DNA from: a phage
Length of the DNA: 64,000 bases
Strand: one strand, 5' to 3'
Assembly (NCBI GenBank): GCA_025829515.1
Contig: GCA_025829515.1_4865.1
Notes under the pieces: generated by a model
Seen by the model: the letters and a program-made list of their open reading frames with translations, nothing else
Database searches by the model: none
Told to the model about the DNA's origin: nothing
Program-made: the position numbers and the translations under genes
Part shown: positions 16,008 to 47,593 of the stretch, in pieces
How the letters are laid out: the number at the start of each line of letters is the position of its first letter
Numbering within the stretch: position 1 is the first letter of the stretch

Positions 16008-16014
16008 AAACAAA

Positions 16015-22448: not shown

Positions 22449-22481
22449 TGCAAACACTCCTAATCTGTAATAAAACGGAGA

Positions 22482-22542
22482 CCGCCCTCCCAATAACGGA
22501 AGGGCGGTTTACCTACGGACTACCCGCCCGTAGGCAGTCCGT
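22482..22542 (-). promoter_or_regulatory. paired intergenic hairpins between the fibre genes (partial terminator / RNA processing candidate)
   Basis: CCGCCCT...AGGGCGG and ACGGACT...AGTCCGT stems (with alternative CCTACGG/CCGTAGG pairing); in the minus sense they are followed by a U-rich tract just before the RBS of gene 22448. Confidence 0.35.
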
Positions 22543-22543
22543 C

Positions 22544-25500
22544 CTAAGAGGCCCACTCACCCGAGTTGTTGCCTTCGTTTCTACGTTCAGTATCCAACGT
22601 TTGTAAAATCCAATCCCATGTCCTGGTGGGGATGTGGAATGGATTACGCTTCTCAATGAGAATCGTCTCGCCACCCGTGCGAAGTTCCACCGGTGTCGTT
22701 TCAGTAATCACGAACATCGGATTACCACTACTGCCCACGCCATTAATAGTGAACTTCGCTTGCAGCGGCGGCACAGAACCTTCCGGAGGCACGAACACGA
22801 TGTGAATTGGCTGCATCGGTTTCGTGCGGGCAAGTGTCCCAGATATCTGAACAGCTGTTGTCGATGCACTGAAAGGTATAACATTACCCGGAATTTTCTC
22901 ACTACCCACGATGATATATCCAGGGTAGTTAGAGAGCATTGTCCCATTTACCGACACAAAACGCTCATTTTGAGTTGGGCGATAAGCCCGCATAAAGCCG
23001 TACTTCCATTCACCACCGTTAGACGTATAGTCTGCAGGAGCCGACTCAAGTAGCGGAGCACCACGTTTCTGCAGCCCTTTGTAAAACGGCGCTGGGAGTT
23101 TACCGTTCGGTGCAAGTTCCGGATAACCCTCACTTGCAGCAGACATCGTGATGTATTCCGTAACCGGGTTATCGACGTTATCTCCAAAGTTCGCGAACGC
23201 GACGGTTGATATCGACATCTCCTCATGCCCAGAAGACTGGCTGTCCGGAGAACGCTCAATATACGACTCAAATAGCGAGCGTAGATAATGGAAACGATTT
23301 AAATCTACTTCTGTTGTGGAAGGGTCCATCAAACCGTGGTTGATAGTGACACCTTCACCAGTTTCGAGGCCAGTAACACTAATCGATAAAGCGCCGCCTT
23401 TAAAATAATCAATCGCGTCAAACGGAATGTCGTATTCTATCTCACGAACAGTCGCCGAAGCCTGCCCACCTATCTTACTAATCGACGATATTCGCAGTAT
23501 CTGCGTATCAACAATATAGCGATAACGAATAAGCCAGCGCGAACCAATGGCTGCGAACTCGCTAGCGATTGAAACCGGGAGATAGTCTAAACAGTCAGGC
23601 GACTGAACATCCACGCTCTTGATTACACGAGGAGCATCAACCAGCGTATTAGTAACGCTGGATTGTGTGCTGGCAATTCTTCCGGTTGGTTTATCGTACG
23701 GCGCGGCAATAAAGCCACAATTTAAACTGGTCTTGGAGTTACTCCACCGCAGGACTCTGGTTTTACCTTTCTCATCAGCAGAAGGGGCCATGAAGTTTAA
23801 TGAAACTTCGACGTCCGAGGTTTTTGGGACTTCAGGATAATCAGTGTCGATTACCACCGAACCCTCGAATGTCGCCATTCCGTTTTCTTTCGGGTTGCTT
23901 GGTGTAAACCAGCAATACGGGGACGCGTTTTCAGTAGAAACAACCGCCGCAAGAAGAATCCTGAGCGAGGTGGCACTTACGAATTTATAATCAAATAACC
24001 CACGGTCTAAACGAACGAGGTTATCCCCAGAAACAGACGGGTTAGTTGGATACGCGTACAGCCATTGTTTAGGTAACGGATCAACCTTATTCAACGGCAG
24101 CATTTTCGGGTTATCCGTCAATGACCAGTCGGTGTTACTCACCCCGTGTGCCAGACGTGTTTCGAAGTGCCGTTTAAGTTCGGACGCCATGCCAAAATCA
24201 AACGTCGTTTCAAACTCGTAAGTCGTGCCTGCAACCAATCCCGCGTCAGGGACATCGATGTGTCCGATATAGCCGCGTTCCAAGTTAATACCTTCCGTGT
24301 CCACAATAGGTTCGGCGCGCGAATATAACGCATCGGTTATCATGTTCACATAGAGGTAATGCCTTAAACCGTTCGGCGTCTTAACAAACTCCTGCAGGCG
24401 GGCAACTTTAGTGTTTTTATCCGAGGCCCCAACCGCAAAGTCACCGTCGTAAACTGTGAAACGAATTGCGGCTGCTTTAGCGCTATCGTTACACTCGGCA
24501 CGGAATGCTAAGCAATGTTGCTTCCACCCCTTCTTGACAGTCGCCTCCAGATACCCCGCTTCTGTAATACCCGCACCGATAATTTCACCGTCCAGATAAA
24601 CAGAAACAGCACCACCGCCACGAACCCAAATCCGCAGCTTACCAGAGTCGCAACGAACCCATGTTTTCGCCAAGAGGTTAACGACCGACAAATCACCCAT
24701 TCCGGTTGTCGTTAAACCAATCTGCGCACCGTAGTTCGTTTCCGGGACGGCAACCTCAAACCCACTAAAATCAATACCGGCACCGGTATTGATTACCGCG
24801 TTCTGCCACGTTCTTTCCATACGGTTATCTGGAGAGAACCACTGGAACATCGGCGTGGTTTGCAGGTCTATCGAACCAGATACCGTCCCCTCTTTACGTG
24901 CACCATTTAACAGATAGAAATAATTCAAATCCGTTACGGCGAGTGTGGTACGTGTAGATCCCACAGTCCAAGTCTTGCCGCGCACCGCGGCAAAATCGGT
25001 CACGGAGTCCTCTTTCGCGTTTGCTAGCGCAGCTGCAACTACGTCTAAACGTTTTGACAAATCGTTCAGAACGTTTGGGGTAACGCCGCGATTATCCGAC
25101 AAGCCATTTAGGTTGGTAGAATATCGAGCGATACCGGGCACTGTTTGAGAAGCCGTTGGGATCTGTAAATCGGCGAAGTTGTGATGGTGGCCTTTATCAC
25201 TAAGACCAGTAACTGCTTCTGCCAACGCATCAGAAAGTGGTTTATCGACGTCAGCTGTGTTATCAGCCAAGTCCAGACCCAAATCCTTTTTCGTTAGCGT
25301 TCGGCTACCAGTGTCCATCGGCTGGTTATTCAGCAGCGTTGTCTTCCTGACGTACGAAGACAGATCACCCTCGTACGGTAAGAGCGAAGCTGGGGTGGCT
25401 GCTTGTCCCTTGACTACATCGCTCGGCTTATCAGTCAGCGTCACAACGCCGGGTTCAGAGGTCGTCGCGGGTTTGGCTGTGACCTTCCCGGTGACGGGAT

Positions 25501-26674
25501 CGGCTTTTGACCCTTTACCCGTGAAAGTAATGCCGTTCACCCCGCTAATGTACAGTTTGTTGTCATCCGGGTCAACGGTACCACCGCCGGTACCAGGGTC
25601 TTGTTGATAGCCCATGAGAGCAGTTGTGGTCAGTAACGTCGTACCATTAAGCGTCAGCTTATCCATCCCCAAGGCACTGCCAGTCGACTCAATACGTAAT
25701 GTATTGATGCCTGCTTTCCACTCCATAAACCGGACGGTTCCAGTAGTGTCGGCATACCCACACGCCAACACAACAGAGCCATTAGATTTAAGAGTGAATG
25801 CCTCAGCAGAGAACACAATTTCGGATTCACCAGCAGGAGAACGGAACAGGGCACGAGTACCGGATATCGTCGCATTAAACACCCCTCTGGATTCTTTCGA
25901 TACCCATTTAGAAATGTACTTGTCGATATCCGATTGTTGCAGACCCAGTGCACGGACCTCGCTGGTTAACTGACGCAACGTCTTTCCATACGCCAGGAAA
26001 GTATCTGGCGTTTTCAGGTTGACAGGATGCGCACCGGCCTGCGCCGCGGTAGTCCCATGAGGGTTAGTCGACGCAATGTGTCCGGGGTAGTTAAATGTGG
26101 CGATTTCAGTTCCTAAGCCCAAAACCGCATCTTTCAGCTCAGTAAGCTTTTCACGAATCTGCTCGTTGGCCGCCCCGGCATCTAACTCCACATCATGCAC
26201 TGCAGAGGCAACATACTTTTTATTCAGCATGTCTGACCAAGCTACCGCTGCAGGGGTGGCTGGGTACAGGGAAGGTCGATTACCTAAAAGCAGCCAATCT
26301 GCAGCCGTTGGATTGTTGAGTGCCTTAATTAGCTCATCCAACATCTCAATCAAACCACTGTAAAACGTACCCCCGAGCATCTGGCCTTCAAAGACCACCG
26401 CACCACGCAGTTTAGGGTTAATAAGATGCACCCCGCAAAACACCGGGGTCGTCACCGAGTCGTCCAACGGTGTTAAAGCATACTCCAGCTCATAGTCCGT
26501 CCCGCGGGTAAGCGGTATGGACGAGCCGGCGAGCCTTACCACCAATCCTTCGAAAAACGGGCGATGATCTAGCATCACCACCCGATCGTTAGGATTGTCG
26601 GAGTCGATGATACGTTCCTCGATGAAGTGACACTCGGGATTCACACCCCGAGGATCGTAAGGATACGTTTTCAT
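22544..26674 (-). CDS. giant tail fiber / tailspike protein (1376 aa)
   Basis: ATG with AAGGAGA RBS; N-terminal RPFFEGLVVRL...GTDYELEYA anchor-like block shared with the other fibre genes. Confidence 0.55.
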   Translation of the reverse strand: MKTYPYDPRGVNPECHFIEERIIDSDNPNDRVVMLDHRPFFEGLVVRLAGSSIPLTRGTDYELEYALTPLDDSVTTPVFCGVHLINPKLRGAVVFEGQMLGGTFYSGLIEMLDELIKALNNPTAADWLLLGNRPSLYPATPAAVAWSDMLNKKYVASAVHDVELDAGAANEQIREKLTELKDAVLGLGTEIATFNYPGHIASTNPHGTTAAQAGAHPVNLKTPDTFLAYGKTLRQLTSEVRALGLQQSDIDKYISKWVSKESRGVFNATISGTRALFRSPAGESEIVFSAEAFTLKSNGSVVLACGYADTTGTVRFMEWKAGINTLRIESTGSALGMDKLTLNGTTLLTTTALMGYQQDPGTGGGTVDPDDNKLYISGVNGITFTGKGSKADPVTGKVTAKPATTSEPGVVTLTDKPSDVVKGQAATPASLLPYEGDLSSYVRKTTLLNNQPMDTGSRTLTKKDLGLDLADNTADVDKPLSDALAEAVTGLSDKGHHHNFADLQIPTASQTVPGIARYSTNLNGLSDNRGVTPNVLNDLSKRLDVVAAALANAKEDSVTDFAAVRGKTWTVGSTRTTLAVTDLNYFYLLNGARKEGTVSGSIDLQTTPMFQWFSPDNRMERTWQNAVINTGAGIDFSGFEVAVPETNYGAQIGLTTTGMGDLSVVNLLAKTWVRCDSGKLRIWVRGGGAVSVYLDGEIIGAGITEAGYLEATVKKGWKQHCLAFRAECNDSAKAAAIRFTVYDGDFAVGASDKNTKVARLQEFVKTPNGLRHYLYVNMITDALYSRAEPIVDTEGINLERGYIGHIDVPDAGLVAGTTYEFETTFDFGMASELKRHFETRLAHGVSNTDWSLTDNPKMLPLNKVDPLPKQWLYAYPTNPSVSGDNLVRLDRGLFDYKFVSATSLRILLAAVVSTENASPYCWFTPSNPKENGMATFEGSVVIDTDYPEVPKTSDVEVSLNFMAPSADEKGKTRVLRWSNSKTSLNCGFIAAPYDKPTGRIASTQSSVTNTLVDAPRVIKSVDVQSPDCLDYLPVSIASEFAAIGSRWLIRYRYIVDTQILRISSISKIGGQASATVREIEYDIPFDAIDYFKGGALSISVTGLETGEGVTINHGLMDPSTTEVDLNRFHYLRSLFESYIERSPDSQSSGHEEMSISTVAFANFGDNVDNPVTEYITMSAASEGYPELAPNGKLPAPFYKGLQKRGAPLLESAPADYTSNGGEWKYGFMRAYRPTQNERFVSVNGTMLSNYPGYIIVGSEKIPGNVIPFSASTTAVQISGTLARTKPMQPIHIVFVPPEGSVPPLQAKFTINGVGSSGNPMFVITETTPVELRTGGETILIEKRNPFHIPTRTWDWILQTLDTERRNEGNNSGEWAS

Positions 26675-26686
26675 TCAAAAATCTCC

Positions 26687-29600
26687 TTAATCACGAATAA
26701 TAAGTGTTCGAGCTGACGTGTTTTTCGGATTGAACGTCATCATCTTGGATGGGTGTGCCGCCAGTGGAATTTTACCTGCATCCACTGGTCGGAACGAACT
26801 GTATGAATAGTTGCACATCGCGCTGTTCATCTCATTAATCGTTGAACCTGCATCCACCACGCCAGTAAAGAATCTTGCGCGGTTTAAGCCGGAATAGTTA
26901 ATCGCATAGTCAAGGAACGTGGCGTAATAACGATTCTTTGTCGGCATCGTGTTCAGGTTAGCGTAAGTCAAACGCGCTTCTGTGTCGGAACTAAACAAAC
27001 CACCCACGCCGTGATAAATCGGCGTACTCGGATCGGTAATCAGTTTCGTCAAGTCGATATAGTCAGGACGGAGACGGGTAGACAAATCCTCAGTCCACGA
27101 CTCGCCGGTCGACTGCAAGGTGTATTTCAGCGTCTTTGTTGTCGCGGTTAGCGTCAGCTCAAAGTTGATCGTTTTAGAATCGATGTTAATCGTTCCCACG
27201 AACGAAATACCGTCCGCTGTTCGCGCGTGGCTGAAACGCACCGATGGATTAAGTGCCGTCCAGTCATGGCCGGAACCAGTAACGCCGTTCAAGCCAATAA
27301 CAACCTGTGCAGCACGTCCGTAGTTAACCGCGATTCCCGCATACGTGCTCACGCCGCCTGGAGTGGTAATACGCCCTGCGGTGCGTGCGACGAGTACAGA
27401 AATACGGTGCATGAACGTGGCCGAGTGATGGCAACACCCAATTACCGTTTCTAGCACACTGTCCGCTGTTGCGGTTAAAGGTGTCCACGTTGCGGTAATG
27501 CCGTTATTCTGGAACATCGGGAATGTGTTGTGGACAAAACGATAGTCGGTTACAGATAAACTGGTTGTTTTAAACGTCCATTTATCAGCAGCCGGATCGT
27601 AGTCCGCTTTCAACATAGGCGTATAGCTGCTAGCCTGCGCGTAACGCCAATCGGCATCTATACGTTTTGTACCTGGTGCACCCGTGGACCACACAGGCCC
27701 GCCCGTACCGTAAGTAAATCCGAAATCAGCTTGCGTCATACCCCGACGAATATGGGCGTTATCATCCTCGATATGCTCGCCTAATTCACGGAACTCACCT
27801 AAACGCGTCACGTTGCGGATTTCTACAAAAACCACACCGGTTTCACTGGTGATGATGGAACCTATTTTGGTCATCGTCTCAGTTTCTGCCGTGTTTGGAT
27901 TTTCGTAGATAATGTACTTGCCGTCATCGCCCGCCGCGTCAACATACACGCCAAACTCAGCATCTTCGTGCGTCGCTGGGAATAGCTCCGCCAAGTTAAA
28001 TGTGGAGAGAGGTACTTTGTACTCGCGACCAACGAAATAATCGTTCGCTTTAATAGTAACCATCCAGTCGGTGTAAGTGATGCCGTTTTCAATGGTATCC
28101 GTGCCGGGTAAACCGTAACGAATAATGTTGATTGAAGCACCAGAGTCGACTGTCTTCGCAACCTTCTCTATCTCTGTGATAGCGTCCGCCTGTCGGATGA
28201 CCTCACCGCCGTCTAATGCCAGCGTGGCATCGTCAACCGCGGTGCCGAACTGTACTAAACCGAACTCCGTCGTTGTTGCACGCTTAATCCCGAGCGCAGC
28301 AGGAGCGTGTGTGTGACCGACGACTGCATACTTGTCCAGCTCAGCTCGTTGGAGCGGGGAAATCGGCAATTGCACGTCTGGGATGTTCTGTACGTTCGAT
28401 AAGCCGAAGTTAGTTTTATCGATGTAAATAGAACTCGTCAGTGGCATGTCGTTGATGTACGATTTAACGGCAACCAACTTGCCCGTAAACTGCTGATCCA
28501 ATTTCTTGATGAGTGCCGGCGTTGCGGCCAAGTCCTCACGATCACCGAATTCAGTAGCCAACAAACGGACAGCCATCAGGCCAAGGTCGTCGGACTCCGG
28601 TGGAACAAAAGTACAAATGAACGGAACAGACTGAATACCGTTGCCGTTAATGGTTACAGTAGCTGTGGATGTTCCGTAAAACAGTCCATCACCACCTGAC
28701 TCGTTACCCGGCAGGTACGGTCCGACCGTAGTAGGGTCCAATAGTTTCTTACCGTTGAACTCCAATCCACGGGAATCCGGATAAAGGATGAGTTGGTTAG
28801 CCCCACCTTGCCATGTAATCGGGTTATTCCCGGCGTTAACGGTTTGCGAATCGCGGCCAATAAAACGGATAACCCTCGGGTCAACCGTGAATTGTGCACC
28901 CACGCCTTCAGACTCATCGGTACCCACTGCTGACGTTATCGAAGTCAGGCCAGGCTTCATACCGAAAGTGCCGTTGATAGACTGTGCAGCCGCCGGTAAA
29001 CGTAAAAGCTTATTCGCCAGCGTTGACAGTTTCGGCAACAGATTGTTAACGTAATCTGTCAGCTGCGGTTGCGTTTTTCCGTATACCAGTGTCGCGTCCG
29101 AAGCAATACCGTTATTCTCCAAAGCACGGATTGCGCCCCACGAATCGCGATGTGGGTTATCCTTGCGCGGCACGTGCGTATGTGCTGGTGCATCACGGTA
29201 CAGCTTATCGACAATCTGGTGATATTTTACCAGCAGCTGGTACACGTCGTTGTTAACGTCAGGTGCCGGTGCGCCTGGTAATGAACGAATCTGGACGTAA
29301 TCGTTCTCACCTGCCCACCAGTTTAGGTTGACGCCCGATTTAAACTTCAACCATTTTGCGACATCAGTTTTCTGATACCCTGGTGCAAATTCGCTCGGTG
29401 GGTTGTCAACGTTAAAGCTGTAGTTAACGGTTTGCTTGCTTGTTTTAACGGTAATGTCGTAAACGCCGTTACCTTCGCGTCTGACCACGCTAAGCTCAAT
29501 ATCACCCGCCAACTCGGTATCGGTCAGGCCAGTCGTCAACGTATAGCTGTAATTAGACGAACCAGAACCAATCGCCGTCGTTAAGGTAAGATAAATCGCG

Positions 29601-30400
29601 CGTTGCTTCAACTGAAGACGCAGGATACTTGTCCCACCGTTTGCGTAACAGAGCATCCAATCGATCAACTCGCCTGGGTTCAACGTTGTTTCCGGTGGAA
29701 TGCTCGGTAAACGGTATTTTGCCGCTAACGAATACGCACCGAACGTCGTGTTCTGGTAAGATAACGAATAACGACGACGCGACGCGTTATACGTGTAGCC
29801 GCCAGTACCGTCGTACGTCGCATACTGCTCGGATGTGATAAGCGTGACACCGGCGCGATATTGAAGGTCTAACGTGTTACGAGCAATCGGGTCAACGCGA
29901 CTGATCGCTTCACCGAGCTTAGCACCAACCGCAACAATGGCTTCCATCAACTCGGATTCGCCACGCCAGTTTTCCCAGTCGAACTTAATATCGACCGGTG
30001 GGAAATATAAATCCCCAATGACGTTATCCCATTGGCAGTCTACGGGATAGCGATCTTTATTCGCTTCTCGTTCTGCGGCGATCATTTCTGCAGTGGCTTC
30101 ACCGATGCCAATTGCGTGGTAATCGAGTGTAAAGCCACTCTGATATTTCGGGTTGGTAATCCACACACCGCCGTGACAAACATGGCCAGTGCGTGCCATG
30201 CCCGTAACGTATGCATGGGTGATGACGTAATCATCACCTAATGTTAATTTCTTGCCGCCACTCTTGACCACCAGGGATGTGGTATAAAAGGGGGCGTGTG
30301 CGGGGAACAGCATCCGGTACTTAGTACCGATCGGCGTTACCGCTTCACCGGTCTGCATATTCCCCGGTTCTTGATAGTGCGGGTCAGGGACGACAGCCAT
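26687..30400 (-). CDS. giant tail fiber / tailspike protein (1237 aa), first gene of the minus-strand structural operon
   Basis: ATG with GGAGTG RBS; N-terminal APFYTTSLVV...GDDYVITHAY anchor-like block. Confidence 0.55.
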   Translation of the reverse strand: MAVVPDPHYQEPGNMQTGEAVTPIGTKYRMLFPAHAPFYTTSLVVKSGGKKLTLGDDYVITHAYVTGMARTGHVCHGGVWITNPKYQSGFTLDYHAIGIGEATAEMIAAEREANKDRYPVDCQWDNVIGDLYFPPVDIKFDWENWRGESELMEAIVAVGAKLGEAISRVDPIARNTLDLQYRAGVTLITSEQYATYDGTGGYTYNASRRRYSLSYQNTTFGAYSLAAKYRLPSIPPETTLNPGELIDWMLCYANGGTSILRLQLKQRAIYLTLTTAIGSGSSNYSYTLTTGLTDTELAGDIELSVVRREGNGVYDITVKTSKQTVNYSFNVDNPPSEFAPGYQKTDVAKWLKFKSGVNLNWWAGENDYVQIRSLPGAPAPDVNNDVYQLLVKYHQIVDKLYRDAPAHTHVPRKDNPHRDSWGAIRALENNGIASDATLVYGKTQPQLTDYVNNLLPKLSTLANKLLRLPAAAQSINGTFGMKPGLTSITSAVGTDESEGVGAQFTVDPRVIRFIGRDSQTVNAGNNPITWQGGANQLILYPDSRGLEFNGKKLLDPTTVGPYLPGNESGGDGLFYGTSTATVTINGNGIQSVPFICTFVPPESDDLGLMAVRLLATEFGDREDLAATPALIKKLDQQFTGKLVAVKSYINDMPLTSSIYIDKTNFGLSNVQNIPDVQLPISPLQRAELDKYAVVGHTHAPAALGIKRATTTEFGLVQFGTAVDDATLALDGGEVIRQADAITEIEKVAKTVDSGASINIIRYGLPGTDTIENGITYTDWMVTIKANDYFVGREYKVPLSTFNLAELFPATHEDAEFGVYVDAAGDDGKYIIYENPNTAETETMTKIGSIITSETGVVFVEIRNVTRLGEFRELGEHIEDDNAHIRRGMTQADFGFTYGTGGPVWSTGAPGTKRIDADWRYAQASSYTPMLKADYDPAADKWTFKTTSLSVTDYRFVHNTFPMFQNNGITATWTPLTATADSVLETVIGCCHHSATFMHRISVLVARTAGRITTPGGVSTYAGIAVNYGRAAQVVIGLNGVTGSGHDWTALNPSVRFSHARTADGISFVGTINIDSKTINFELTLTATTKTLKYTLQSTGESWTEDLSTRLRPDYIDLTKLITDPSTPIYHGVGGLFSSDTEARLTYANLNTMPTKNRYYATFLDYAINYSGLNRARFFTGVVDAGSTINEMNSAMCNYSYSSFRPVDAGKIPLAAHPSKMMTFNPKNTSARTLIIRD

Positions 30401-30467
30401 TTTACACTCCTTTTCTCTGAGGGCGTCGAGTTCATACTATGACCCGAATCCTTAGAGGAAACAGCCA

Positions 30468-31730
30468 GTGACTACTGCTTATCAAGTGCGGGCCGACAGC
30501 GCTTTTGGCTTCTCTCGAGACACCCGAACTTGGGGAACCATCGATGTCACGCAGCCCTTAAATACCCTTTGTGCTAACTACCACTTTTTCGAAGTAGGAC
30601 TAGAAGCACTAGGTGCTGAATATACCTTCTATAGCCAGTATCACCTGGCTGATTTACAAAACCGTACGGACACGTTGCAAGATTGGTTAAACACCAAGTC
30701 AGGAATCGCGATTCCAACGCTTGGGAAGGGCCTACCGAAGCTCGAATTCGTTGAGGCACATTACCAGTCTATTAATGCAGATGTGCCCGTAGAAACGCAC
30801 CTGTGCCCTCCTGGGTACCACTACACCCAGGACTTCAATCCTGATGATGCACACGACGTTGTTGTAGTCTGCGACGATGAGTGGAAAGAGAAATACCGTA
30901 CTGGAGTGCTGTACAACATCAACGGCCAGTGGGTACCTCACCAATCTGACCCAGTGGGCGTTCGCTTAACCGGCGCTGGTAATATCGTGCGGCGTGCCAA
31001 TACGCCAGACATTGGCTGTCTGGTGATGGCAAATATCGGTAAAGTAAAGACCTACCCCATATCCGGTTTAACGATGAACAAACTCGATACTACGCGAGAT
31101 TACTATTCTTCGTTAATGCTGACCTTACCCGATTCCATTACAGGGAAAACCGTTGGGTTCGTCATCGGAGGTATTCTGCATTGGTTGCCGCCGCAGGGCT
31201 ATTTCAGCGACCGTGCGATTATGCTGAGTCTGCCAAACCTTAGCGTGGCGAAGATTGTATTGGAAACCCGTCGCTATTACGATTGGGACGCCATCGGTGT
31301 AGGTGATTTAAGTACGCCTACGTCCGTTCAACGTATTCGTAACTCAGAAACGTTAAAAGCGTTGCTGACGCACGAATCCTCGTTTATCTTTACGATAGAC
31401 AACCCGTATCTCGAAAAAGAGATTCACGGAATAAGCCACAACGCTATCTGGGGCCGGTTCTATTTAAAAGACCCGACTGACCCAGATGGGAAGAAGACGC
31501 TAGGTCCTATCTTTAACCGTATTGGTAAATGTGTAGGGTACTGGCCGACCTGGGAAGAAGGGGAGTGGGTCTTTAATACCACATTCTTCGACCGGGAAAA
31601 CTTTTTGTTGGGGAACGCGCGTTGGTATAACCAGAATTTGGTAAACGACGCGCAGGCAATCGTCGGGCCTTTCGGGGCTTGGGGTAAGCCGTTTGTTGAA
31701 ATGCATCGCTACAAAGCAAGAAAAAAATAA
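30468..31730 (+). CDS. hypothetical protein (420 aa)
   Basis: GTG start with AGAGGAA RBS; long ORF; transcribed divergently from the fibre operon. Confidence 0.45.
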   Translation: MTTAYQVRADSAFGFSRDTRTWGTIDVTQPLNTLCANYHFFEVGLEALGAEYTFYSQYHLADLQNRTDTLQDWLNTKSGIAIPTLGKGLPKLEFVEAHYQSINADVPVETHLCPPGYHYTQDFNPDDAHDVVVVCDDEWKEKYRTGVLYNINGQWVPHQSDPVGVRLTGAGNIVRRANTPDIGCLVMANIGKVKTYPISGLTMNKLDTTRDYYSSLMLTLPDSITGKTVGFVIGGILHWLPPQGYFSDRAIMLSLPNLSVAKIVLETRRYYDWDAIGVGDLSTPTSVQRIRNSETLKALLTHESSFIFTIDNPYLEKEIHGISHNAIWGRFYLKDPTDPDGKKTLGPIFNRIGKCVGYWPTWEEGEWVFNTTFFDRENFLLGNARWYNQNLVNDAQAIVGPFGAWGKPFVEMHRYKARKK

Positions 31731-31738
31731 AAGGTAAA

Positions 31739-31761
31739 CCCTACTCCCATTGGGAGTAGGG
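31739..31761. terminator. bidirectional terminator hairpin (CCCTACTCCC-ATT-GGGAGTAGGG)
   Basis: 10-bp perfect stem; A7-rich tract upstream and T6 downstream; between convergent genes 30468(+) and 31791(-). Confidence 0.6.
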
Positions 31762-31790
31762 TACCTATATCTTTTTTGCCCGCAGGCCGA

Positions 31791-32000
31791 TTACGCGTTT
31801 ACGTAATAGATGGCGTTGCCGAACATTTTGTTGTTGCCGCCACAAGCGGTAACTTTGAATGCTACGCCGCCTTCAGCTTCAGCTTTTTTAGCCAGCGCTT
31901 CGGTAACTTCGGTAACGGTGCTCAGTCCAGAAACCTGAACAGTGCCTGCTTCTACCAGACCAGAAACGTCGCTGCCTGCGGTGATTTCACGAATGCTCAT
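31791..32000 (-). CDS. DUF1471 (YdgH/BhsA/McbA-like) domain protein without signal peptide (69 aa)
   Basis: GTVQVSG...ALAKKAEAEGG.AFKVTA.GGNNKMFGNAIYY matches the DUF1471 consensus (GT[IV]S..G...[LA]A.KA.E.GA..[FY][RK][IV]T[SA]....N...G.A..Y) known from enterobacterial stress proteins; GGAGA RBS. Confidence 0.55.
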   Translation of the reverse strand: MSIREITAGSDVSGLVEAGTVQVSGLSTVTEVTEALAKKAEAEGGVAFKVTACGGNNKMFGNAIYYVNA

Positions 32001-32208
32001 TTACTTATCTCCATTAACAAATGATAGCAGAAGAACCCTATGTCCAACTACTTGTACTTCGAGGCATATTAACTGCCCCGTCTCGTAAATTAGTTGACAA
32101 TAAACCGGCTTTTGTGCGAAAAAAGTGGCTAACCGTGTACAAGCGATTTGGGTTATCGTTACAGTTAGGAGGTTTATTGTCACAATATACAGCTCACACG
32201 TAATTAAA

Positions 32209-33141
32209 TTAGTGCGGTGTGCTAGTGTCGTTGCCCGGACCATGGCCAGTATGCAAGTGAAGACTAAAGGTAATGCCGCCGATAACCGATTCGGTAACTG
32301 TGAATGTGCCCTTACCTTCACCCTTGCCGTTATAGAGGAAATCCTTACCTACTTCCAGGTTACCGGTAAATAGATTCGTTGGGCATGTGGTCTTCCAGTC
32401 TTCAGTCGTCCATGCCATGTTTTTCGACGCTGTAGAGTTGCGAGTTTCGCACTTCTCGTTAATCGTCTTTGTCTCGAGATTAATAGAACGTTTAGCATAA
32501 ATGAAAGCGTCCTCTTTATTAATATTAATCTTCGACCGGCAGGCGTTTTCAAACCCTAAGTCATCCTCTGGGGAGTTAAGGTAGAACTTACGCCCTTCGT
32601 CATCTACTAACTGGAAAAACCCATCGCGCGTGTTCAATTGAAATAGATACGCATTTTTCTCACCGTTAGTCATACTGGTACGTAAAGTAACGTGACCATC
32701 CATCGGGGAGATATTCAGTACGTAGGCGTTAGAGAGGTCATCGGCCATCTGGTTTACTGGGTCAGCAGACCAGGCGTATACCCCATCTTCCAGTCGCTTA
32801 ACGTTACTGTTGTTTAAATCTTCCCAGAAGTACATATCGGTTTCACCGATACGCCAGATTCTTACGTAATCTTCTTTTTTCACATCCGGAGGGTTAACCC
32901 GGTTGCTGTTGGACTTCATCCATTTTGCAGTGATGGCATTACCTTGCTTTACAGTAAGGTTGTCAGTACCACTTAAACTGTTGTGTTGCTTCTCTACAGG
33001 TGTCTCTGTTGCATCGACAGCTGTTGGATTAATAAAGTTAACTTCGATAGGGATGACTTTAACTCGAGTGGCACCACGAGGTTTATCTTCCGCGACGATA
33101 CCTATCGAGAAGATGTGCAACCCTGACTTAGATTTATTCAT
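32209..33141 (-). CDS. hypothetical protein (310 aa)
   Basis: ATG with AGGAGGG RBS; Lys/Asn-rich; no recognised motif. Confidence 0.5.
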   Translation of the reverse strand: MNKSKSGLHIFSIGIVAEDKPRGATRVKVIPIEVNFINPTAVDATETPVEKQHNSLSGTDNLTVKQGNAITAKWMKSNSNRVNPPDVKKEDYVRIWRIGETDMYFWEDLNNSNVKRLEDGVYAWSADPVNQMADDLSNAYVLNISPMDGHVTLRTSMTNGEKNAYLFQLNTRDGFFQLVDDEGRKFYLNSPEDDLGFENACRSKININKEDAFIYAKRSINLETKTINEKCETRNSTASKNMAWTTEDWKTTCPTNLFTGNLEVGKDFLYNGKGEGKGTFTVTESVIGGITFSLHLHTGHGPGNDTSTPH

Positions 33142-33321
33142 ACCACCCTCCTCTCATACTACACTTTTTTACGTTTCGATCTCATCGTTTGACAATCGAG
33201 GAGTGTACGGGGGTAAGGGGGTTTATGTATTGGATGCGAACATAAACGGAGGTATCCGTAGGATACCGACATCCTTTTTGTAGTTGACCTTGACTTTTAA
33301 CCTAACGAGGAGTGCAGTACC

Positions 33322-33639
33322 ATGTCTTTATTTCAAACCATTAAAAGTGCATTAGAGCGTAATGATGCAGACAGTGCCTTTACTGCGTTGCAGAAAGCCA
33401 GTAACGGGAAGCTAGACAGCGTCTTTGCTAACAATCAAAGAATGCGCTTTTACAAAGTCGGGGAAGTAGACCAGTTCTACGACGAACTGTTTACGGGGGT
33501 AGTGCAAAGCGCGGTATACGCCATGCCGACTGAACAATTAAGTCAGTTTGAAAAAGGGATGCGTTACCAGCGGTTAAGTAACGACTACGCATTACTGAAT
33601 CTGGCTATCGATGACTGCATCGTACTGGTTGTATACTAA
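33322..33639 (+). CDS. hypothetical protein (105 aa)
   Basis: ATG with GAGGAG RBS. Confidence 0.45.
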   Translation: MSLFQTIKSALERNDADSAFTALQKASNGKLDSVFANNQRMRFYKVGEVDQFYDELFTGVVQSAVYAMPTEQLSQFEKGMRYQRLSNDYALLNLAIDDCIVLVVY

Positions 33640-33759
33640 GTTTTTACAGATAGATGTCATCTTAGTGAGCATTGTGTATAAACCCACAGTCGCTTAAACA
33701 CCAACTGTTCTTTAGTAACAGTTTTTGGTCACTTTAGTGTACTTTAAAGGAAATACCGA

Positions 33760-34998
33760 ATGTATAACGAATACGAATTAGTTTACCAGACACCGAAAGA
33801 AGCATTCTTTAATGCAGTAATTACTAACTCAATTGTACTGTTGGGAATGCAGTTCAGTGTTCGGAGTATGGCTTACAGCGATGTAACGTGGCAGGATTGT
33901 GCGTACCTGCCACAAAAGCTCTCAACCGTTGTCGAAAAGCGGCTGCTTGACAAAGGGGAAGTAAAGTGCCGTTTAGGCCACCACGTCTCTGACTTAGCGC
34001 CGTGGGTTGAGTTAACCATGACGTTCGAAGGGGATTCGCGGGTAGTTTACCTATCAGGTAATCAAAACATCGGACGCGCCATTGCTGAGGGTAACACAAT
34101 GTGGGTGCACTACATTCTTACTCTGCTGACCGGTAAACCGGTGTTCGAGTTAACACCTGACATGCCGGCACTAAGCGATAGCAATTGGTGGACTGGCGGA
34201 GAGCTGAATACAGGGTTTAATGAGAAATTACAAAACTTTAATTCAGAGCGACTCGATGTTGATGCGGAAGTGTTGGTGCAGCAGTTCCCCGAATTCACTG
34301 CGTACCAAATTACTACCGTATGGAATAGAGCGGTAAGCAAGCGCAGATTCTACACAAAAAATGCACCGCGTGAAGCAGCCAAACCTGTGGAAATTGACGA
34401 AGACACCAAAGAAGCACTGCGTGATCTAGCCACCATAGCCAATGATGGCAATACGATGTTCTGGACATCTGATGAAAACGCTAACCGTTATTTCGGTGAG
34501 ATGTTAGACGCCGATGTTTGGTCAGTAATGCCGATAGCAGAGCCTGGAAACCTTAAAGATTACTATAAGGTCGAAAAGGATGAGGTGGTTAATGAGAAAG
34601 TCGTCGCTCTTCTTGCTGTTTTCCGCGAAGTTATCCAGTCAGAAATACTGTTAAGCATCTATAAACGCAAGACCCCGGCCAGTGAAAATGACACGGCGTG
34701 GGTATTTGACTGTCGACCAACAAATACAACATCGCCCGCGTTCTGGATACAGGTGTCAGGAACGCTGCAGCGCGTGAACAGTTCCGTTGTTTCTCGCCTG
34801 CCGGATTCTGAAATGCGCTCCGTTGCCGAACCTGCTTATTTGATGTCGGCGAAGGCGGTACGGGACGCGTGGGGTACCAGCGAACTGAAACAGTGGCACT
34901 ACGACGCCATCATCAAATGGGGTGTTAACAATGGCTGGAAAGAAGTGACTAAGTACGGCCGTCAACTGTTGTTTGTCGCAGATTTGCGTTTACTGTAA
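33760..34998 (+). CDS. hypothetical protein (412 aa)
   Basis: ATG with AAAGGAA RBS; followed by a terminator. Confidence 0.5.
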   Translation: MYNEYELVYQTPKEAFFNAVITNSIVLLGMQFSVRSMAYSDVTWQDCAYLPQKLSTVVEKRLLDKGEVKCRLGHHVSDLAPWVELTMTFEGDSRVVYLSGNQNIGRAIAEGNTMWVHYILTLLTGKPVFELTPDMPALSDSNWWTGGELNTGFNEKLQNFNSERLDVDAEVLVQQFPEFTAYQITTVWNRAVSKRRFYTKNAPREAAKPVEIDEDTKEALRDLATIANDGNTMFWTSDENANRYFGEMLDADVWSVMPIAEPGNLKDYYKVEKDEVVNEKVVALLAVFREVIQSEILLSIYKRKTPASENDTAWVFDCRPTNTTSPAFWIQVSGTLQRVNSSVVSRLPDSEMRSVAEPAYLMSAKAVRDAWGTSELKQWHYDAIIKWGVNNGWKEVTKYGRQLLFVADLRLL

Positions 34999-35004
34999 TC
35001 TCGT

Positions 35005-35037
35005 CATCGGGGGTCTTGTACCCCCTTCTTATTTTTT
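35005..35037 (+). terminator. rho-independent terminator (GGGGG-TCTTGTA-CCCCC, T-run)
   Basis: GC stem followed by TTCTTATTTTTT. Confidence 0.55.
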
Positions 35038-35058
35038 AACCGTAAAGAGTATTTAACC

Positions 35059-36740: not shown

Positions 36741-36747
36741 TTTATCT

Positions 36748-36786
36748 CCAGTAACCACGAGGGTTACTGGAGTCCTCTTATTTTTT
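36748..36786 (+). terminator. rho-independent terminator (CCAGTAACC...GGTTACTGG, T-run)
   Basis: 9-bp stem followed by CTCTTATTTTTT. Confidence 0.55.
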
Positions 36787-36819
36787 ACACTTAACTCAAA
36801 TTAATTTGAGGTGTGGTAT

Positions 36820-37407: not shown

Positions 37408-37457
37408 AATATCTCAGATATATATTACCTAGGTGAGAGTTAAGAGATTAACTCAAT

Positions 37458-37486
37458 GGCTACCTTCGGGTAGCCTATTCTTTTTT
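37458..37486 (+). terminator. rho-independent terminator (GGCTACC-TTCG-GGTAGCC, T-run)
   Basis: 7-bp stem, TTCG loop, followed by TATTCTTTTTT. Confidence 0.6.
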
Positions 37487-37511
37487 AAACCAATCGACTA
37501 TAGAGCAAAAC

Positions 37512-39851: not shown

Positions 39852-39858
39852 ATACGAG

Positions 39859-39890
39859 AGGTAGCCTACGGGCTACCTTCTTTTTTTGTT
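39859..39890 (+). terminator. rho-independent terminator (AGGTAGCC-TACG-GGCTACCT, T7 run)
   Basis: 8-bp stem followed by TCTTTTTTTGTT. Confidence 0.6.
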
Positions 39891-39905
39891 GAAGAAGGAT
39901 TAAAC

Positions 39906-40532: not shown

Positions 40533-40543
40533 CTCTCCTCTCT

Positions 40544-40575
40544 GGAACCCTTCGGGGTTCCATTTCTTCTTTTTT
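40544..40575 (+). terminator. rho-independent terminator (GGAACCC-TTCG-GGGTTCC, T-run)
   Basis: 7-bp stem, TTCG loop, followed by ATTTCTTCTTTTTT. Confidence 0.6.
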
Positions 40576-40628
40576 ACGCATGACCTTTTGGATATGAACG
40601 ACTAATACTTTCTCATTAGAAGGCAAAC

Positions 40629-43139: not shown

Positions 43140-43320
43140 AGGTTGGCGCTTATGGGCTTGGTGGGGTTTTCAGTTCCTTCAGTTTGTTGTGATGGTACTG
43201 TACCTCTCCTTTTGTGCAACCGTAGTGGTTATCGCTGCGGTCGTTTATTTAGCTGCTGCTCTTAAAGAACGTCTGTTCGACACGCGTTGTGAGTGGCGAG
43301 ATATAGGGGAACGGACATGA
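43129..43320 (+). CDS. small hydrophobic membrane protein (63 aa)
   Basis: Trp-rich N-terminus and two predicted TM helices; start overlaps the end of the Rad50-like gene. Confidence 0.4.
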   Translation: MHHKGWRLWAWWGFQFLQFVVMVLYLSFCATVVVIAAVVYLAAALKERLFDTRCEWRDIGERT

Positions 43321-43421
43321 TTGAAGGTATCGTATTAACCGGTATTGCACTGTGGTTGATTCGTGGTGCCTGGGGTTGGATTATCCGCACGAAAGGATGG
43401 GCGTTCCATGGCAACACGTAA
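43317..43421 (+). CDS. tiny hydrophobic peptide (34 aa)
   Basis: ATGA overlap with the upstream stop; MIEGIVLTGIALWLIRGAWGWIIR is a single TM-like helix. Not in the track. Confidence 0.25.
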   Translation: MIEGIVLTGIALWLIRGAWGWIIRTKGWAFHGNT

Positions 43422-43611
43422 ACCACGTCGCTTAAAATCTTGGGCGGTTGTGATAATGCACACTGTAGTGTTGCTGGGTATTTTCTTGTCTCGTGCCACG
43501 CCTGCCTTTTGGGGCTTAGTTGTTTTGGTGTTCTTAGAAGGGGTTTACTTCGGTAATCTGTGGAGCAAGCCCCCGCGTTTAAGGGACCCGGCTTATGACA
43601 GTCGTGAATAG
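43408..43611 (+). CDS. small membrane protein (about 67 aa)
   Basis: Start chosen at ATG 43408 (AAAGGATGG RBS); two hydrophobic helices. Confidence 0.35.
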   Translation: MATRKPRRLKSWAVVIMHTVVLLGIFLSRATPAFWGLVVLVFLEGVYFGNLWSKPPRLRDPAYDSRE

Positions 43612-43726
43612 TGTCAACGCGGCGATGATTGCAACGGGTGCGTATGACGGTGCCACATGGACAGATGTTGGTATCACGCTTATCATTTGCGCAATCGGAG
43701 CGTTTGTAGCAACATGGTTATTTTAG
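43595..43726 (+). CDS. tiny hydrophobic peptide (43 aa)
   Basis: ATG overlapping the end of the previous ORF; GITLIICAIGAFVATWLF TM-like segment. Not in the track. Confidence 0.25.
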   Translation: MTVVNSVNAAMIATGAYDGATWTDVGITLIICAIGAFVATWLF

Positions 43727-47588: not shown

Positions 47589-47593
47589 TTAAC

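What the first reader, a model, noticed from the sequence alone, without database searches (positions are those of the whole stretch)
31791..33141. Reverse-oriented two-gene island with a signal-less DUF1471 (BhsA/YdgH-like) protein
Within an otherwise plus-strand region, two minus-strand genes are bounded by a bidirectional terminator and a divergent intergenic region. One encodes a 69-aa DUF1471-like domain, a family known from enterobacterial periplasmic stress/biofilm proteins, but here without a signal peptide. This looks like a moron-like acquisition and hints at an enterobacterial host.
Basis: partly seen in the sequence, partly recalled or inferred. Interest (0 to 1): 0.45.

Follow-up and report, generated by a model that had tools for sequence, protein, structure and literature searches.

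The report
Signal-less DUF1471 gene beside phage spike
The window comes from an SPN3US-type giant Salmonella phage, and the flagged pair is its core tail-spike gene plus an old, conserved, already annotated small gene: a host periplasmic DUF1471 domain that has lost its export signal, so this is not a recent foreign island.

Summary
**Observation.** It is real. ORFs 31791-32000(-) and 32209-33141(-) exist. The 69-aa product matches Pfam PF07338 (E=3.3e-11, 43.5 bits against a cut-off of 27). It has the DUF1471 fold and cannot carry a signal peptide.

**Interpretation.** It is mostly wrong.
- The window is 97-98% identical to Salmonella jumbo phage SPN3US. The ORFs are gp172, which RefSeq already names 'DUF1471 domain-containing protein', and gp173.
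- gp173 is the core central tail spike: a phiKZ gp164 homologue with a Mu gp45-like HxH apex. It is not cargo.
- The spike, spacer, DUF1471 order is conserved across five jumbo-phage genera.
- The gene's composition is phage-like, it is under purifying selection, and it carries a phage-type TATG promoter motif.
- It is therefore an ancient, clade-specific insertion.

**Published proteomics.** gp172 is 'unusually abundant in the cell'. It is seen only in lightly purified particles and is absent from double-gradient virions and tails.

**Best reading (function inferred).** It is an abundant, cytoplasmically made mature DUF1471 domain. It could reach the enterobacterial envelope only by a Sec-independent route.

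**New details.** Two allelic types are shuffled among lineages, and the gene sits where phiKZ encodes its PAAR spike tip.

Interest is modest.

The parts
31738..31762 (.). G+C-rich hairpin (ACCCTACTCCC-AAT-GGGAGTAGGGT) between the convergent genes gp171 (+) and gp172 (-). It is the likely terminator of the DUF1471 transcription unit.
   Evidence: The terminator scan calls it on the minus strand: 11 pairs, 7 G-C, loop of 3, tail TTACCTTTTA. On the plus strand the T-run is displaced by 9 nt and was not called.
31791..32000 (-). CDS of 69 aa, the homologue of SPN3US gp172 (100% amino-acid identity). It is a DUF1471 (YdgH/BhsA/McbA-like) domain that corresponds to the mature periplasmic form and has no signal peptide.
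   Evidence: Pfam PF07338 E=3.3e-11. phrog_8068 E=3e-33. AF2 model pLDDT 84.6 with strand-strand-helix-strand-strand topology. The top PDB fold matches are SrfN, YdgH and YahO. RefSeq YP_009153466.1 is named 'DUF1471 domain-containing protein'. dN/dS within allele types is 0.10-0.40.
32001..32208 (-). A 208-bp spacer between the spike and DUF1471 genes. It holds GGAG (32012-32009) 8 nt before the ATG, an in-frame TAA (32003-32001), a candidate phage promoter with TTTAC at 32089-32085 and TATG at 32068-32065 (putative +1 G at 32065, 65-nt leader), and conserved blocks such as GCCACTTTTTTCG.
   Evidence: The nine-phage spacer alignment shows a conserved TTAnTATGC, a conserved TTTAC, and a GACATAGGGTCTT leader. 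TA[N]TATG occurs 14 times in the window; 10 of these fall in the 9% that is intergenic, and 7 lie 20-71 nt upstream of same-strand genes. The phiKZ late consensus is TATG with G as +1, and the middle element AAanTTACc lies near -24 (PMC4666361). The RNA fold of the spacer is not exceptional (z=-1.24).
32209..33141 (-). CDS of 310 aa, the homologue of SPN3US gp173. It is the central baseplate spike (cell-puncturing device), with an N-terminal OB-fold part like phiKZ gp164 and a C-terminal self-sharpening HxH apex like Mu gp45.
   Evidence: phrog_3216 'baseplate assembly protein' E=6e-123. PDB 6orj/9xph (PHIKZ164) E=5.9e-27 over residues 6-223. Mu gp45 (3vtn, 3vto, 9ki1) E=4e-4, with query HLH aligned to target HIH. 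TIGR01644 P2 gpV match is weak, E=0.006. The H-x-H motif is conserved in all 10 phages compared.
33142..33321 (.). Divergent intergenic region between gp173 (-) and gp174 (+). It contains a TAGTATG motif at 33161-33155 (-), 13 nt upstream of the spike ATG, which is the candidate spike promoter.
   Evidence: Motif positions; sequence.
30468..31730 (+). Context gene: the homologue of SPN3US gp171, an essential tail/baseplate protein (phiKZ ORF130 homologue). It converges on the DUF1471 gene.
   Evidence: phrog_3337 E=5e-149. Thomas et al. 2016 report gene 171 as essential, tail-associated and an ORF130 homologue (PMC5105663). In the phiKZ baseplate, gp130 links the star-lobe complexes (PMC13250141).

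Best explanation
**What it is (identity, about 0.95 sure)**
- The window is an SPN3US-type (Seoulvirus) nucleus-forming jumbo phage.
- 32209-33141(-) is the core central tail spike, gp173.
- 31791-32000(-) is gp172: a host-derived DUF1471 domain cut back to exactly the mature periplasmic form, that is, Met plus the domain with no Sec leader.
- An ancestor of the SPN3US / phiEaH2 / Machina / Wellington / CR5 group inserted it just downstream of the spike gene, as its own transcription unit running from a phage TATG-type promoter to a hairpin terminator. It has been kept under purifying selection since.
- It exists as at least two divergent alleles that have been swapped between lineages.

**How it most likely works (inferred, about 0.35)**
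- It is not a stable virion part.
- The phage's own RNA polymerase expresses it in the middle or late phase, and it accumulates to unusually high levels in the cytoplasm.
- It keeps the family's fold and signature residues, and occurs only in phages of DUF1471-bearing hosts. It therefore probably still binds the envelope partner of host DUF1471 proteins.
- It can meet that partner only by a Sec-independent route. The route I favour is entry into the periplasm once holin lesions or lysis breach the inner membrane, in the way signal-less endolysins get there. There it would act as a mimic or competitor of host envelope-stress DUF1471 proteins. Loose carriage on particles is the second route.

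**Shown**: domain, fold, lack of leader, synteny, selection, allele shuffling, promoter motif, and published abundance and particle data.
**Inferred**: promoter class and timing, site of action, and partner.
For: **Identity**
- 97-98% nucleotide identity to SPN3US; gp172 is 100% identical at the protein level.
- Domain and fold.

**No leader**
- This holds in all phage versions. In contrast, nearly all full-length bacterial representatives in an exhaustive search of 1.84 billion proteins carry a leader.
- The phage N-terminus aligns with the first residues after the bacterial cleavage site.

**Conserved position**
- Conserved synteny in five genera.
- The gene is absent in sister clades that have the same self-sharpened spike.

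**Native to the phage**
- Purifying selection.
- Phage-like GC content and the best codon adaptation among neighbouring genes.
- Own promoter motif of the class found upstream of gp170, gp171 and gp173, with a phiKZ precedent.

**Abundant, and not a stable virion part (Reilly 2020, Table S2)**
- Peptide-spectrum matches (PSMs) were 6 and 3 in CsCl-step-only particles and 13 in a crude pellet.
- PSMs were 0 in step-plus-buoyant-density tailed virions.
- They were also 0 in three purified prohead-plus-tail preparations, where gp173 gave 3, 27 and 26 and gp171 gave 23, 39 and 39.
- gp172 has no row in the 2023 virion mass-spectrometry table.

**Host family**
- DUF1471 is confined to Enterobacterales and is periplasmic, and YdgH needs periplasmic localisation to function (PMC11705850).
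Against: - No experiment places gp172 in the periplasm or links it to lysis.
- The gene sits in a baseplate module, not beside lysis genes.
- Ali et al. 2017 identified it in CsCl-step virions with 4 unique peptides and 81% coverage, and later tables label it 'Tail'. A loosely bound virion role is therefore not excluded.
- A 7-kDa protein can also be lost from gels, which would explain some of the zero counts.
- Other jumbo phages of Enterobacterales (RisingSun, Serratia 2050HW) lack the gene, so it is not required for infecting such hosts.
- The promoter class is inferred from motifs and from phiKZ, not mapped in SPN3US.
Confidence: 0.35

Rival explanations
1. gp172 is a genuine low-copy tail or baseplate accessory, bound at or near the spike. 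Tail contraction would carry it through the outer membrane, placing a folded DUF1471 domain in the periplasm at the start of infection. That route would make a signal peptide unnecessary.
For: - The gene lies directly downstream of the spike gene, at the position where phiKZ encodes its cryo-EM-resolved spike-tip protein gp163.1.
- It was detected in CsCl-step virions with 81% coverage, and was not found in tailless particles, hence the 'Tail' label.
- It has a late-type TATG motif like the neighbouring tail genes.
Against: - Spectral counts run opposite to those of tail proteins. They are 0 in double-gradient tailed virions and purified tails, where gp173 and gp171 are abundant, and highest in the crude pellet. 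Two PSMs were found in tailless heads.
- gp173 already has its own Mu gp45-type HxH apex, so there is no blunt end for a tip protein to cap.
- Sister phages with the same spike have no gene at this position.
- The gp172 allele type does not co-vary with spike or gp171 sequence.
- The protein is not PAAR-like.
Confidence: 0.2
2. gp172 has been neofunctionalised and acts in the cytoplasm. It might be an abundant binder or 'sponge' of a host or phage factor, or a helper of spike or baseplate assembly. Its periplasmic ancestry would then be irrelevant.
For: - It is made without a leader and is very abundant in the cell.
- It has high codon adaptation.
- Shuffling of allele cassettes between lineages is typical of host-interaction accessory genes.
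- It is adjacent to tail genes.
Against: - Family signature positions are retained (L36, G44, A45, G55, N57 and A63 are conserved in at least 90% of 61 sequences). The fold is unchanged. Both suggest that the ancestral binding activity is kept.
- Homologous spikes assemble without it in sister clades.
- There is no co-variation with neighbouring proteins.
- DUF1471 has no known cytoplasmic partner or chaperone activity.
Confidence: 0.25
3. The pair is a recently acquired moron-like island, and its DUF1471 gene confers a BhsA-like stress or biofilm phenotype on the host.
For: - The gene is a self-contained unit between core genes, and its nearest named relative is BhsA.
- Some GenBank records label it 'bhsA'.
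Against: - gp173 is a core structural gene.
- The DUF1471 gene is fixed across five genera, with synonymous divergence (dS) of 0.4-1.0 within alleles.
- Composition is native.
- There is no sigma-70 promoter.
- There is no export signal, which bacterial family members need to function in the periplasm.
- The phage is a virulent jumbo phage, and scores fall below every NCBIfam equivalog cut-off (39-60 bits against 90).
Confidence: 0.03

Closest known systems
Bacterial DUF1471 / YhcN family (PF07338): BhsA/YcfR, McbA, YbiJ, YahO, SrfN, YdgH
   Same: - Significant profile match.
- Same beta-alpha-beta-beta fold, with TM 0.70-0.79 to the SrfN, YdgH and YahO structures.
- 44-56% identity to the nearest bacterial mature domains.
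- Hosts are Enterobacterales, the only order that has the family.
   Different: - No Sec signal peptide in any phage copy.
- Phage-encoded and made in the cytoplasm under a phage promoter.
- Below the curated cut-off of every named paralogue.
- No function is known for it, and the function of the bacterial proteins is itself poorly defined.
SPN3US gp172 (YP_009153466.1 / AEP84005.1) and phrog_8068
   Same: - 100% amino-acid identity, same locus and same neighbours.
- RefSeq already names it 'DUF1471 domain-containing protein'.
- Ali et al. 2017 call it the smallest SPN3US virion protein.
   Different: Nothing substantive differs. The window is a close relative (97-98% nucleotide identity) of the published phage.
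phiKZ gp164 spike plus gp163.1 PAAR tip
   Same: gp173 is homologous to gp164 (E=6e-27). A small gene lies directly downstream of the spike gene on the same strand in both phages.
   Different: - The phiKZ small gene is a PAAR protein (PF05488) lying 9 nt after the spike gene, and it caps a blunt beta-helix.
- Here the small gene is a DUF1471 domain, separated by a 208-bp spacer with its own promoter.
- Here the spike carries its own HxH apex.
- No PAAR homologue was found in Salmonella, Erwinia or Cronobacter jumbo phages.
Phage morons (for example lambda bor/lom, HK97-type morons)
   Same: A single accessory gene of host origin, flanked by its own promoter-like and terminator-like signals, inserted between two core structural genes and absent from sister clades.
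   Different: - Not recent and not variable among close relatives.
- Native composition.
- Phage-RNAP-type promoter motif rather than a sigma-70 promoter.
- The phage is virulent, so there is no lysogen to benefit.
Signal-less canonical endolysins (functional analogy only)
   Same: A protein whose substrate or partner is beyond the inner membrane, yet which is made late, without a leader, and accumulates in the cytoplasm.
   Different: - No enzymatic domain.
- No demonstrated holin dependence.
- Not encoded in a lysis cassette.
- The analogy is an inference, not a tested property.

Membership tests
DUF1471 / YdgH_BhsA-like (PF07338) | Profile-HMM match above Pfam's gathering score | tested here: met
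   43.5 bits against a cut-off of 27, E=3.3e-11, profile positions 2-54 of 55. Homologues in other phages score 46-68 bits.
DUF1471 / YdgH_BhsA-like (PF07338) | Compact beta-alpha-beta-beta DUF1471 fold | tested here: met
   AF2 pLDDT 84.6 with elements E4-6, E15-26, H29-43, E47-54, E59-68. Foldseek top hits are 2jna/2ma8 (SrfN), 4evu/2m2j (YdgH) and 2noc/2ma4 (YahO), with TMq 0.67-0.75.
DUF1471 / YdgH_BhsA-like (PF07338) | N-terminal Sec signal peptide and periplasmic location, as in all characterised bacterial members | tested here: not met
   An in-frame stop lies directly before the ATG. N-terminal hydropathy is 1.24, against at least 1.9 in nearly all full-length bacterial representatives. 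The literature reports that family members have periplasmic signals and that YdgH needs one to function. Actual localisation cannot be tested with these tools.
BhsA (NCBIfam NF047859 equivalog) | Score at or above the curated equivalog cut-off (90 bits) | tested here: not met
   39.4 bits for the window protein. Scores are 46-60 bits for the phiEaH2, CR5 and Wellington versions. The 'bhsA' labels in some GenBank records are over-annotation.
Moron (recently acquired accessory unit) | Autonomous promoter and terminator between core genes | tested here: met
   For gp172 only: a TTTAC...TATG motif at 32089-32065 and a hairpin at 31738-31762. This is evidence at motif level only.
Moron (recently acquired accessory unit) | Atypical composition, or patchy presence among close relatives | tested here: not met
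   GC z=+1.2, GC3 z=-0.4, codon adaptation z=+2.5. The gene is present at the same site in all five related genera examined.
Central spike / cell-puncturing device (phiKZ gp164, Mu gp45, P2 gpV type), tested for the 310-aa ORF | Homology to a structurally defined spike, plus a C-terminal HxH apex | tested here: met
   6orj/9xph E=5.9e-27. Mu gp45 E=4e-4, with query HLH aligned to target HIH. HxH is conserved in 10 phages.
PAAR-type spike tip (phiKZ gp163.1, T4 gp5.4), tested for the 69-aa ORF | PAAR motif or fold, capping a blunt spike beta-helix | tested here: not met
   The only shared feature is gene position. The protein is DUF1471, not PF05488, and the spike here is self-sharpened.
Virion structural protein | Reproducible presence in highly purified particles | tested here: inconclusive
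   Published mass-spectrometry data only. PSMs were 6 and 3 in step-gradient particles, 0 in double-gradient virions and tails, and 13 in a crude pellet. There is no row for it in the 2023 dataset. Its small size may bias detection.

The most novel reading that the evidence does not exclude
A virulent jumbo-phage clade has domesticated a host periplasmic envelope-stress domain, removed its export signal, and delivers the pre-folded domain to the enterobacterial envelope by a Sec-independent route. The route would be holin lesions at lysis, or loose carriage on the tail tip at infection. In the envelope it would mimic or antagonise host DUF1471 proteins. The two allelic types that move between phage lineages would then reflect an arms race with a variable host envelope partner.
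Probability: 0.25. Interest if true: 0.6.

Novelty: new member of a known kind. Interest (0 to 1): 0.3.

Why it matters
**What is already public.** The gene, its DUF1471 label and its detection by mass spectrometry are all in public records. As a discovery this is therefore minor.

**What it offers**
- It gives a clean natural experiment on a poorly understood family. DUF1471 proteins are confined to Enterobacterales, have no known biochemical function, and are thought to need the periplasm.
- A phage clade has kept the bare mature domain for a long time, makes a lot of it, and shuffles two alleles of it. Finding its partner could reveal what DUF1471 domains bind.
- SPN3US has an amber-mutant genetic system, so the question can be tested directly.

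**Corrections to the record**
- 'bhsA / multiple stress resistance protein' is an over-annotation in several phage records.
- gp172's listing as a virion or 'Tail' protein is weakly supported.

Tried and rejected
1. **gp172 as a spike tip or PAAR analogue: rejected.**
   - gp173 has its own HxH apex.
   - Sister clades have no gene at this position.
   - There is no PAAR motif.
   - Mass-spectrometry counts run opposite to those of tail proteins.
2. **Spike-assembly chaperone: judged unlikely.** The sister-clade argument applies again, and the allele type does not co-vary with gp173 or gp171.
3. **Recent horizontal acquisition: rejected** on composition and synteny.
4. **Host sigma-70 promoter for the gene.** None was found in 30300-33800 apart from an unrelated site at 33660.
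5. **Structured RNA in the 208-bp spacer.**
   - The fold is not better than shuffles (z=-1.24).
   - Nothing in the window reaches Rfam gathering scores.
   - There are no tRNAs.
6. **Single versus multiple captures from hosts: unresolved.**
   - A neighbour-joining tree of 56 columns gives phage monophyly in only 14 of 200 bootstraps.
   - The shared N-terminus (MSI[KR]E.., MKEFQS.., MQQFAKGS) and the fixed locus favour one capture.
   - However, types A and B are as far from each other (41-49% identity) as each is from bacterial domains (44-56% identity).
7. **Word-indexed protein search.** It returned only close phage relatives. The exhaustive HMM search was needed to reach bacterial homologues.
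8. **The infection time-course proteome** (Weintraub et al. 2019, PMC6384053). It would give expression timing, but the library does not hold it. No SPN3US transcriptome paper was found either.
9. **A first phylogeny script timed out**.
Full report
**1. What is at the coordinates**

- The two minus-strand ORFs exist exactly as described: 31791..32000 (69 aa) and 32209..33141 (310 aa).
- They are separated by a 208-bp spacer.
- On the right they are bounded by a 180-bp divergent intergenic region (33142-33321).
- On the left they are bounded by a strong hairpin at 31738-31762, shared with the convergent plus-strand gene 30468..31730.
  - The hairpin passes a terminator scan on the minus strand only.
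  - On the plus strand the T-run is offset by 9 nt.
- The phrase 'otherwise plus-strand region' is only half right. Immediately to the left is an 11-gene minus-strand block (10576-30400).

**2. Identity of the window**

- The 3.6 kb around the locus is 97-98% identical to Salmonella phage SPN3US and about 30 close relatives. These are 240-kb jumbo phages of the genus Seoulvirus.
- The ORFs are SPN3US gp172 and gp173 (locus tags SPN3US_0172 and SPN3US_0173).
- RefSeq already annotates them as 'DUF1471 domain-containing protein' and 'baseplate assembly protein'.
- The 69-aa protein is 100% identical to gp172.

**3. The 69-aa protein is a DUF1471 domain**

- Sequence:
  - Pfam PF07338: E=3.3e-11, 43.5 bits against a gathering score of 27, covering 53 of 55 profile positions.
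  - NCBIfam: the best matches are McbA and BhsA, far below the equivalog cut-offs (39-41 bits against 90-110).
- Structure: an AlphaFold2 model built on a 61-sequence alignment has mean pLDDT 84.6 and strand-strand-helix-strand-strand topology.
- Fold matches:
  - The best PDB matches are the solved DUF1471 structures SrfN, YdgH domains and YahO, with TM 0.67-0.75.
  - RcsF (TM 0.79) and the archaeal selenium-binding protein (TM 0.64) are more remote look-alikes.

**4. The lack of a signal peptide is robust**

- An in-frame TAA (32003-32001) abuts the ATG, and GGAG lies 8 nt upstream.
- An exhaustive HMM search of 1.84 billion representative proteins gave 73 hits.
  - The bacterial hits are 83-88 aa, with an MKK-hydrophobic leader and the domain at about residues 28-85.
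  - The only full-length leaderless clusters are the phage ones, at 67-78 aa.
- The phage N-terminus (MSIKEF.., MKEFQS..) lines up with the first residues after the bacterial cleavage site (..A|TEVQS..). The phage protein is therefore Met plus the mature form.

**5. The 310-aa protein is core machinery, not cargo**

- It matches phrog_3216 (E=6e-123).
- It is homologous to the phiKZ central spike gp164, PDB 6orj/9xph (E=5.9e-27, residues 6-223).
- Its C-terminus aligns with the apex of the Mu gp45 puncturing device, with query HLH aligned to target HIH (E=4e-4).
- The H-x-H motif is conserved in all ten related phages compared.
- Homologues occur in 296 jumbo-phage records across many host genera.
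- The adjacent plus-strand gene (gp171) is an essential, tail-associated homologue of phiKZ gp130. gp130 is a baseplate connector in the phiKZ structural atlas.

**6. Evolutionary status of the DUF1471 gene**

- The order spike, then a 200-400 bp spacer, then DUF1471, then a convergent gp171 homologue is conserved in:
  - Seoulvirus (SPN3US, SPAsTU, pEa_SNUABM_29);
  - Erskinevirus (phiEaH2);
  - Machinavirus (Caitlin, Machina);
  - Wellingtonvirus (Wellington);
  - Derbicusvirus (CR5, Phobos, Derbicus).
- gp171 identity falls to 45-50% across this set, so the arrangement is old.
- tblastn finds the gene in 60 phage records. All are jumbo phages of Enterobacterales.
- In a viral structure library, the only significant fold matches are two proteins: a 67-aa protein 41% identical to the query, and the 186-aa Wellington protein.
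- Sister jumbo phages whose spike aligns full-length, apex included, have no gene between the spike and the next convergent gene. These are Erwinia RisingSun, Serratia 2050HW and Aeromonas ZPAH34.
- phiKZ-type Pseudomonas phages instead encode a PAAR spike tip, gp163.1, 9 nt downstream of the spike. No PAAR homologue is detectable in the Salmonella, Erwinia or Cronobacter group.
- The DUF1471 gene is thus a clade-specific insertion at the site where phiKZ has its tip gene. It is not a replacement tip.
- Composition is native: GC 0.505 (z=+1.2), GC3 z=-0.4, and codon adaptation to the phage's own usage z=+2.5.
- Pairwise dN/dS within allele types is 0.10-0.40, with dS of 0.4-1.0.

**7. Two allelic types (a new detail)**

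- The 69-aa protein comes in two types:
  - type A: SPN3US/window, pEa_SNUABM_29, Caitlin (..GLVEAGTVQVSG..GGNNKMFGNA..);
  - type B: phiEaH2, SPAsTU, Machina (..NYKKIGNVTATG..SGNNQQHGSA..).
- Identity is 74-88% within a type and 41-49% between types.
- The types cut across the phylogeny given by both neighbours:
  - SPAsTU and SNUABM29 share 89% (gp171) and 82% (gp173), but only 41% in gp172.
  - Caitlin and Machina share 72% and 80%, but only 46%.
  - Caitlin and the window share 78% in gp172, but only 65% and 62% in the neighbours.
- Sliding-window nucleotide identity shows the same local discordance.
- The alleles have therefore been exchanged between lineages.
- Allele type does not track the recorded host genus or the spike C-terminus.
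- Whether all phage copies stem from one capture is unresolved.

**8. Expression signals**

- No sigma-70-like promoter precedes the gene.
- The heptamer TA[N]TATG occurs 14 times on both strands of the 64-kb window.
  - Ten of these lie in the 9% that is intergenic.
  - Seven lie 20-71 nt upstream of a same-strand gene: gp170, gp171, gp172, gp173 and three others.
  - The stricter TWANTATGM occurs only 3 times, against 8 expected, and all three are upstream of genes.
- The motif is conserved upstream of the DUF1471 gene in all nine phages aligned.
- In phiKZ, late promoters of the non-virion RNA polymerase have the consensus TATG, with G as +1. Middle promoters add AAanTTACc near -24 (PMC4666361).
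- The gp172 upstream region has both elements: TTTAC at 32089-32085 (positions -24 to -20) and TATG at 32068-32065.
- The composite pattern TTTAC-N14-20-TATG is enriched in the window: 10 found against 4.0 +/- 2.1 expected.
- I infer an autonomous middle or late phage promoter with a 65-nt leader. This is a motif-level inference, not a mapped start site.
- Most relatives have a hairpin-plus-T-run terminator in the spacer after the spike gene. The SPN3US lineage, including this window, and the CR5-type phages lack it. Read-through from the spike promoter is therefore also possible here.

**9. What published proteomics says**

- Ali et al. 2017 found gp172 in CsCl-step-purified virions with 4 unique peptides, 6 spectra and 81% coverage. 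They called it the smallest virion protein, noted its absence from a gp47 mutant, and said its status needed resolving.
- Reilly et al. 2020, Table S2, labels it 'Tail' and also notes 'Unusually high abundance in cell'. The counts are telling:

| Sample | gp172 PSMs | gp173 PSMs | gp171 PSMs |
|---|---|---|---|
| Wild type, CsCl step | 6 | 8 | 35 |
| am59-supD, CsCl step | 3 | 0 | 4 |
| Tailed virions, step + buoyant density | 0 | 17 | 36 |
| Tailless heads | 2 | 0 | 0 |
| Crude differential-centrifugation pellet | 13 | 0 | 6 |
| Purified prohead + tail preparation (a) | 0 | 3 | 23 |
| Purified prohead + tail preparation (b) | 0 | 27 | 39 |
| Purified prohead + tail preparation (am66) | 0 | 26 | 39 |

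- The 2023 virion dataset has no gp172 row.
- This is the behaviour of an abundant soluble protein that is washed off by further purification, not of a stable tail component. Loss of a 7-kDa protein from gels remains a caveat.

**10. Interpretation**

- Secure:
  - the identity of both genes;
  - the domain and fold;
  - the lack of a leader;
  - ancient fixation next to the spike gene;
  - purifying selection and allele exchange.
- Inferred: promoter class and timing.
- Function is unknown even for the bacterial family. That family is confined to Enterobacterales, is periplasmic, and is linked to envelope stress. YdgH requires export to work.
- My committed reading is about 0.35 likely.
  - The phage makes large amounts of the pre-folded mature domain in the cytoplasm.
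  - The domain acts on the host envelope after a Sec-independent entry, most plausibly when holin lesions or lysis open the inner membrane.
  - There it mimics or competes with host DUF1471 proteins.
- Rivals:
  - loosely bound tail cargo delivered at infection (0.2);
  - a neofunctionalised cytoplasmic binder or assembly helper (0.25);

**11. Verdict**

- The 'island / moron' interpretation is not.
- The feature is an already annotated, conserved accessory gene beside a core spike gene.
- It is of modest interest, mainly as a tractable handle on an uncharacterised bacterial domain family.

Noticed in passing
L008:3787-4347 (Erwinia phage Wellington gp189): Wellington carries a second, tandem DUF1471 gene directly after the first. 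The product is 186 aa, with a leaderless DUF1471 domain at residues 22-66 (PF07338, E=6.5e-7) followed by about 120 residues of acidic, low-complexity tail.
   Followed up: partly
window 32001-32208 compared with L002, L003, L005, L006, L008 (alignment A2): Relatives have a G+C hairpin with a UUCG-type loop followed by TTCTTTTTTAC between the spike and DUF1471 genes. The SPN3US lineage (this window) lacks this block; the CR5-type phages lack it too but have a different long hairpin there. A motif GCCACTTTTTTCG is conserved upstream in all SPN3US-type, Machina-type and Wellington-type phages, and I have no explanation for it.
   Followed up: partly
window, intergenic regions such as 9843-9966, 30401-30467, 33142-33321, 58765-58862: TA[N]TATG sits 20-71 nt upstream of many structural genes, often as back-to-back divergent pairs (for example 30435+ and 30439-). 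A second class, TTTACG-N-TATG, lies upstream of the genes at 15949(-), 32000(-), 40629(+) and 58863(+). These look like the late and middle promoter classes of the phage RNA polymerases.
   Followed up: partly
window 35000-35058, 36741-36810, 37408-37511, 39852-39905, 40533-40628, 52195-52283: In the plus-strand block of small genes, nearly every intergenic gap holds a strong hairpin followed by CTTnTTTTTTAC. Several gaps also hold a GATATTAT-like A/T motif (for example 37512, 55313 and 62877 upstream). These are probably terminator plus early or middle promoter modules.
   Followed up: no
public records LR535901-LR535917 (Salmonella phages SPFM1, 5-10, 12, 14, 15, 20); proteins P0009-P0011: These records match the locus only as about 40 short shuffled pieces covering 67-68% of the query. 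Their predicted 'gp172' proteins are scrambled permutations of the real sequence. This suggests assembly or consensus artefacts in those deposits.
   Followed up: no
window 33088-33141 region / C-terminus of the 310-aa ORF (32209-32262): The spike apex of the SPN3US lineage reads ..FSLHLHTGHGPGNDTSTPH. All other genera compared have ..H.H[TK]E[QL]GDG.[DN]V..P. (Caitlin carries a 2-residue C-terminal extension). This is a lineage-specific change right after the metal-binding HxH motif.
   Followed up: no
window 43140-44237, and also 47589-47942 and 62383-62876: These are long stretches without any ORF of 90 aa or more. The first holds several 40-92 aa plus-strand ORFs that may be small genes. 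No Rfam family or tRNA was found anywhere in the window.
   Followed up: partly
model m5e5407092e13 compared with PDB 2y1b: The outer-membrane stress sensor lipoprotein RcsF ranks among the DUF1471 structures as a fold match (TMq 0.79, E=3.9e-3, 10% identity). This may hint at a shared envelope-sensing scaffold.
   Followed up: no
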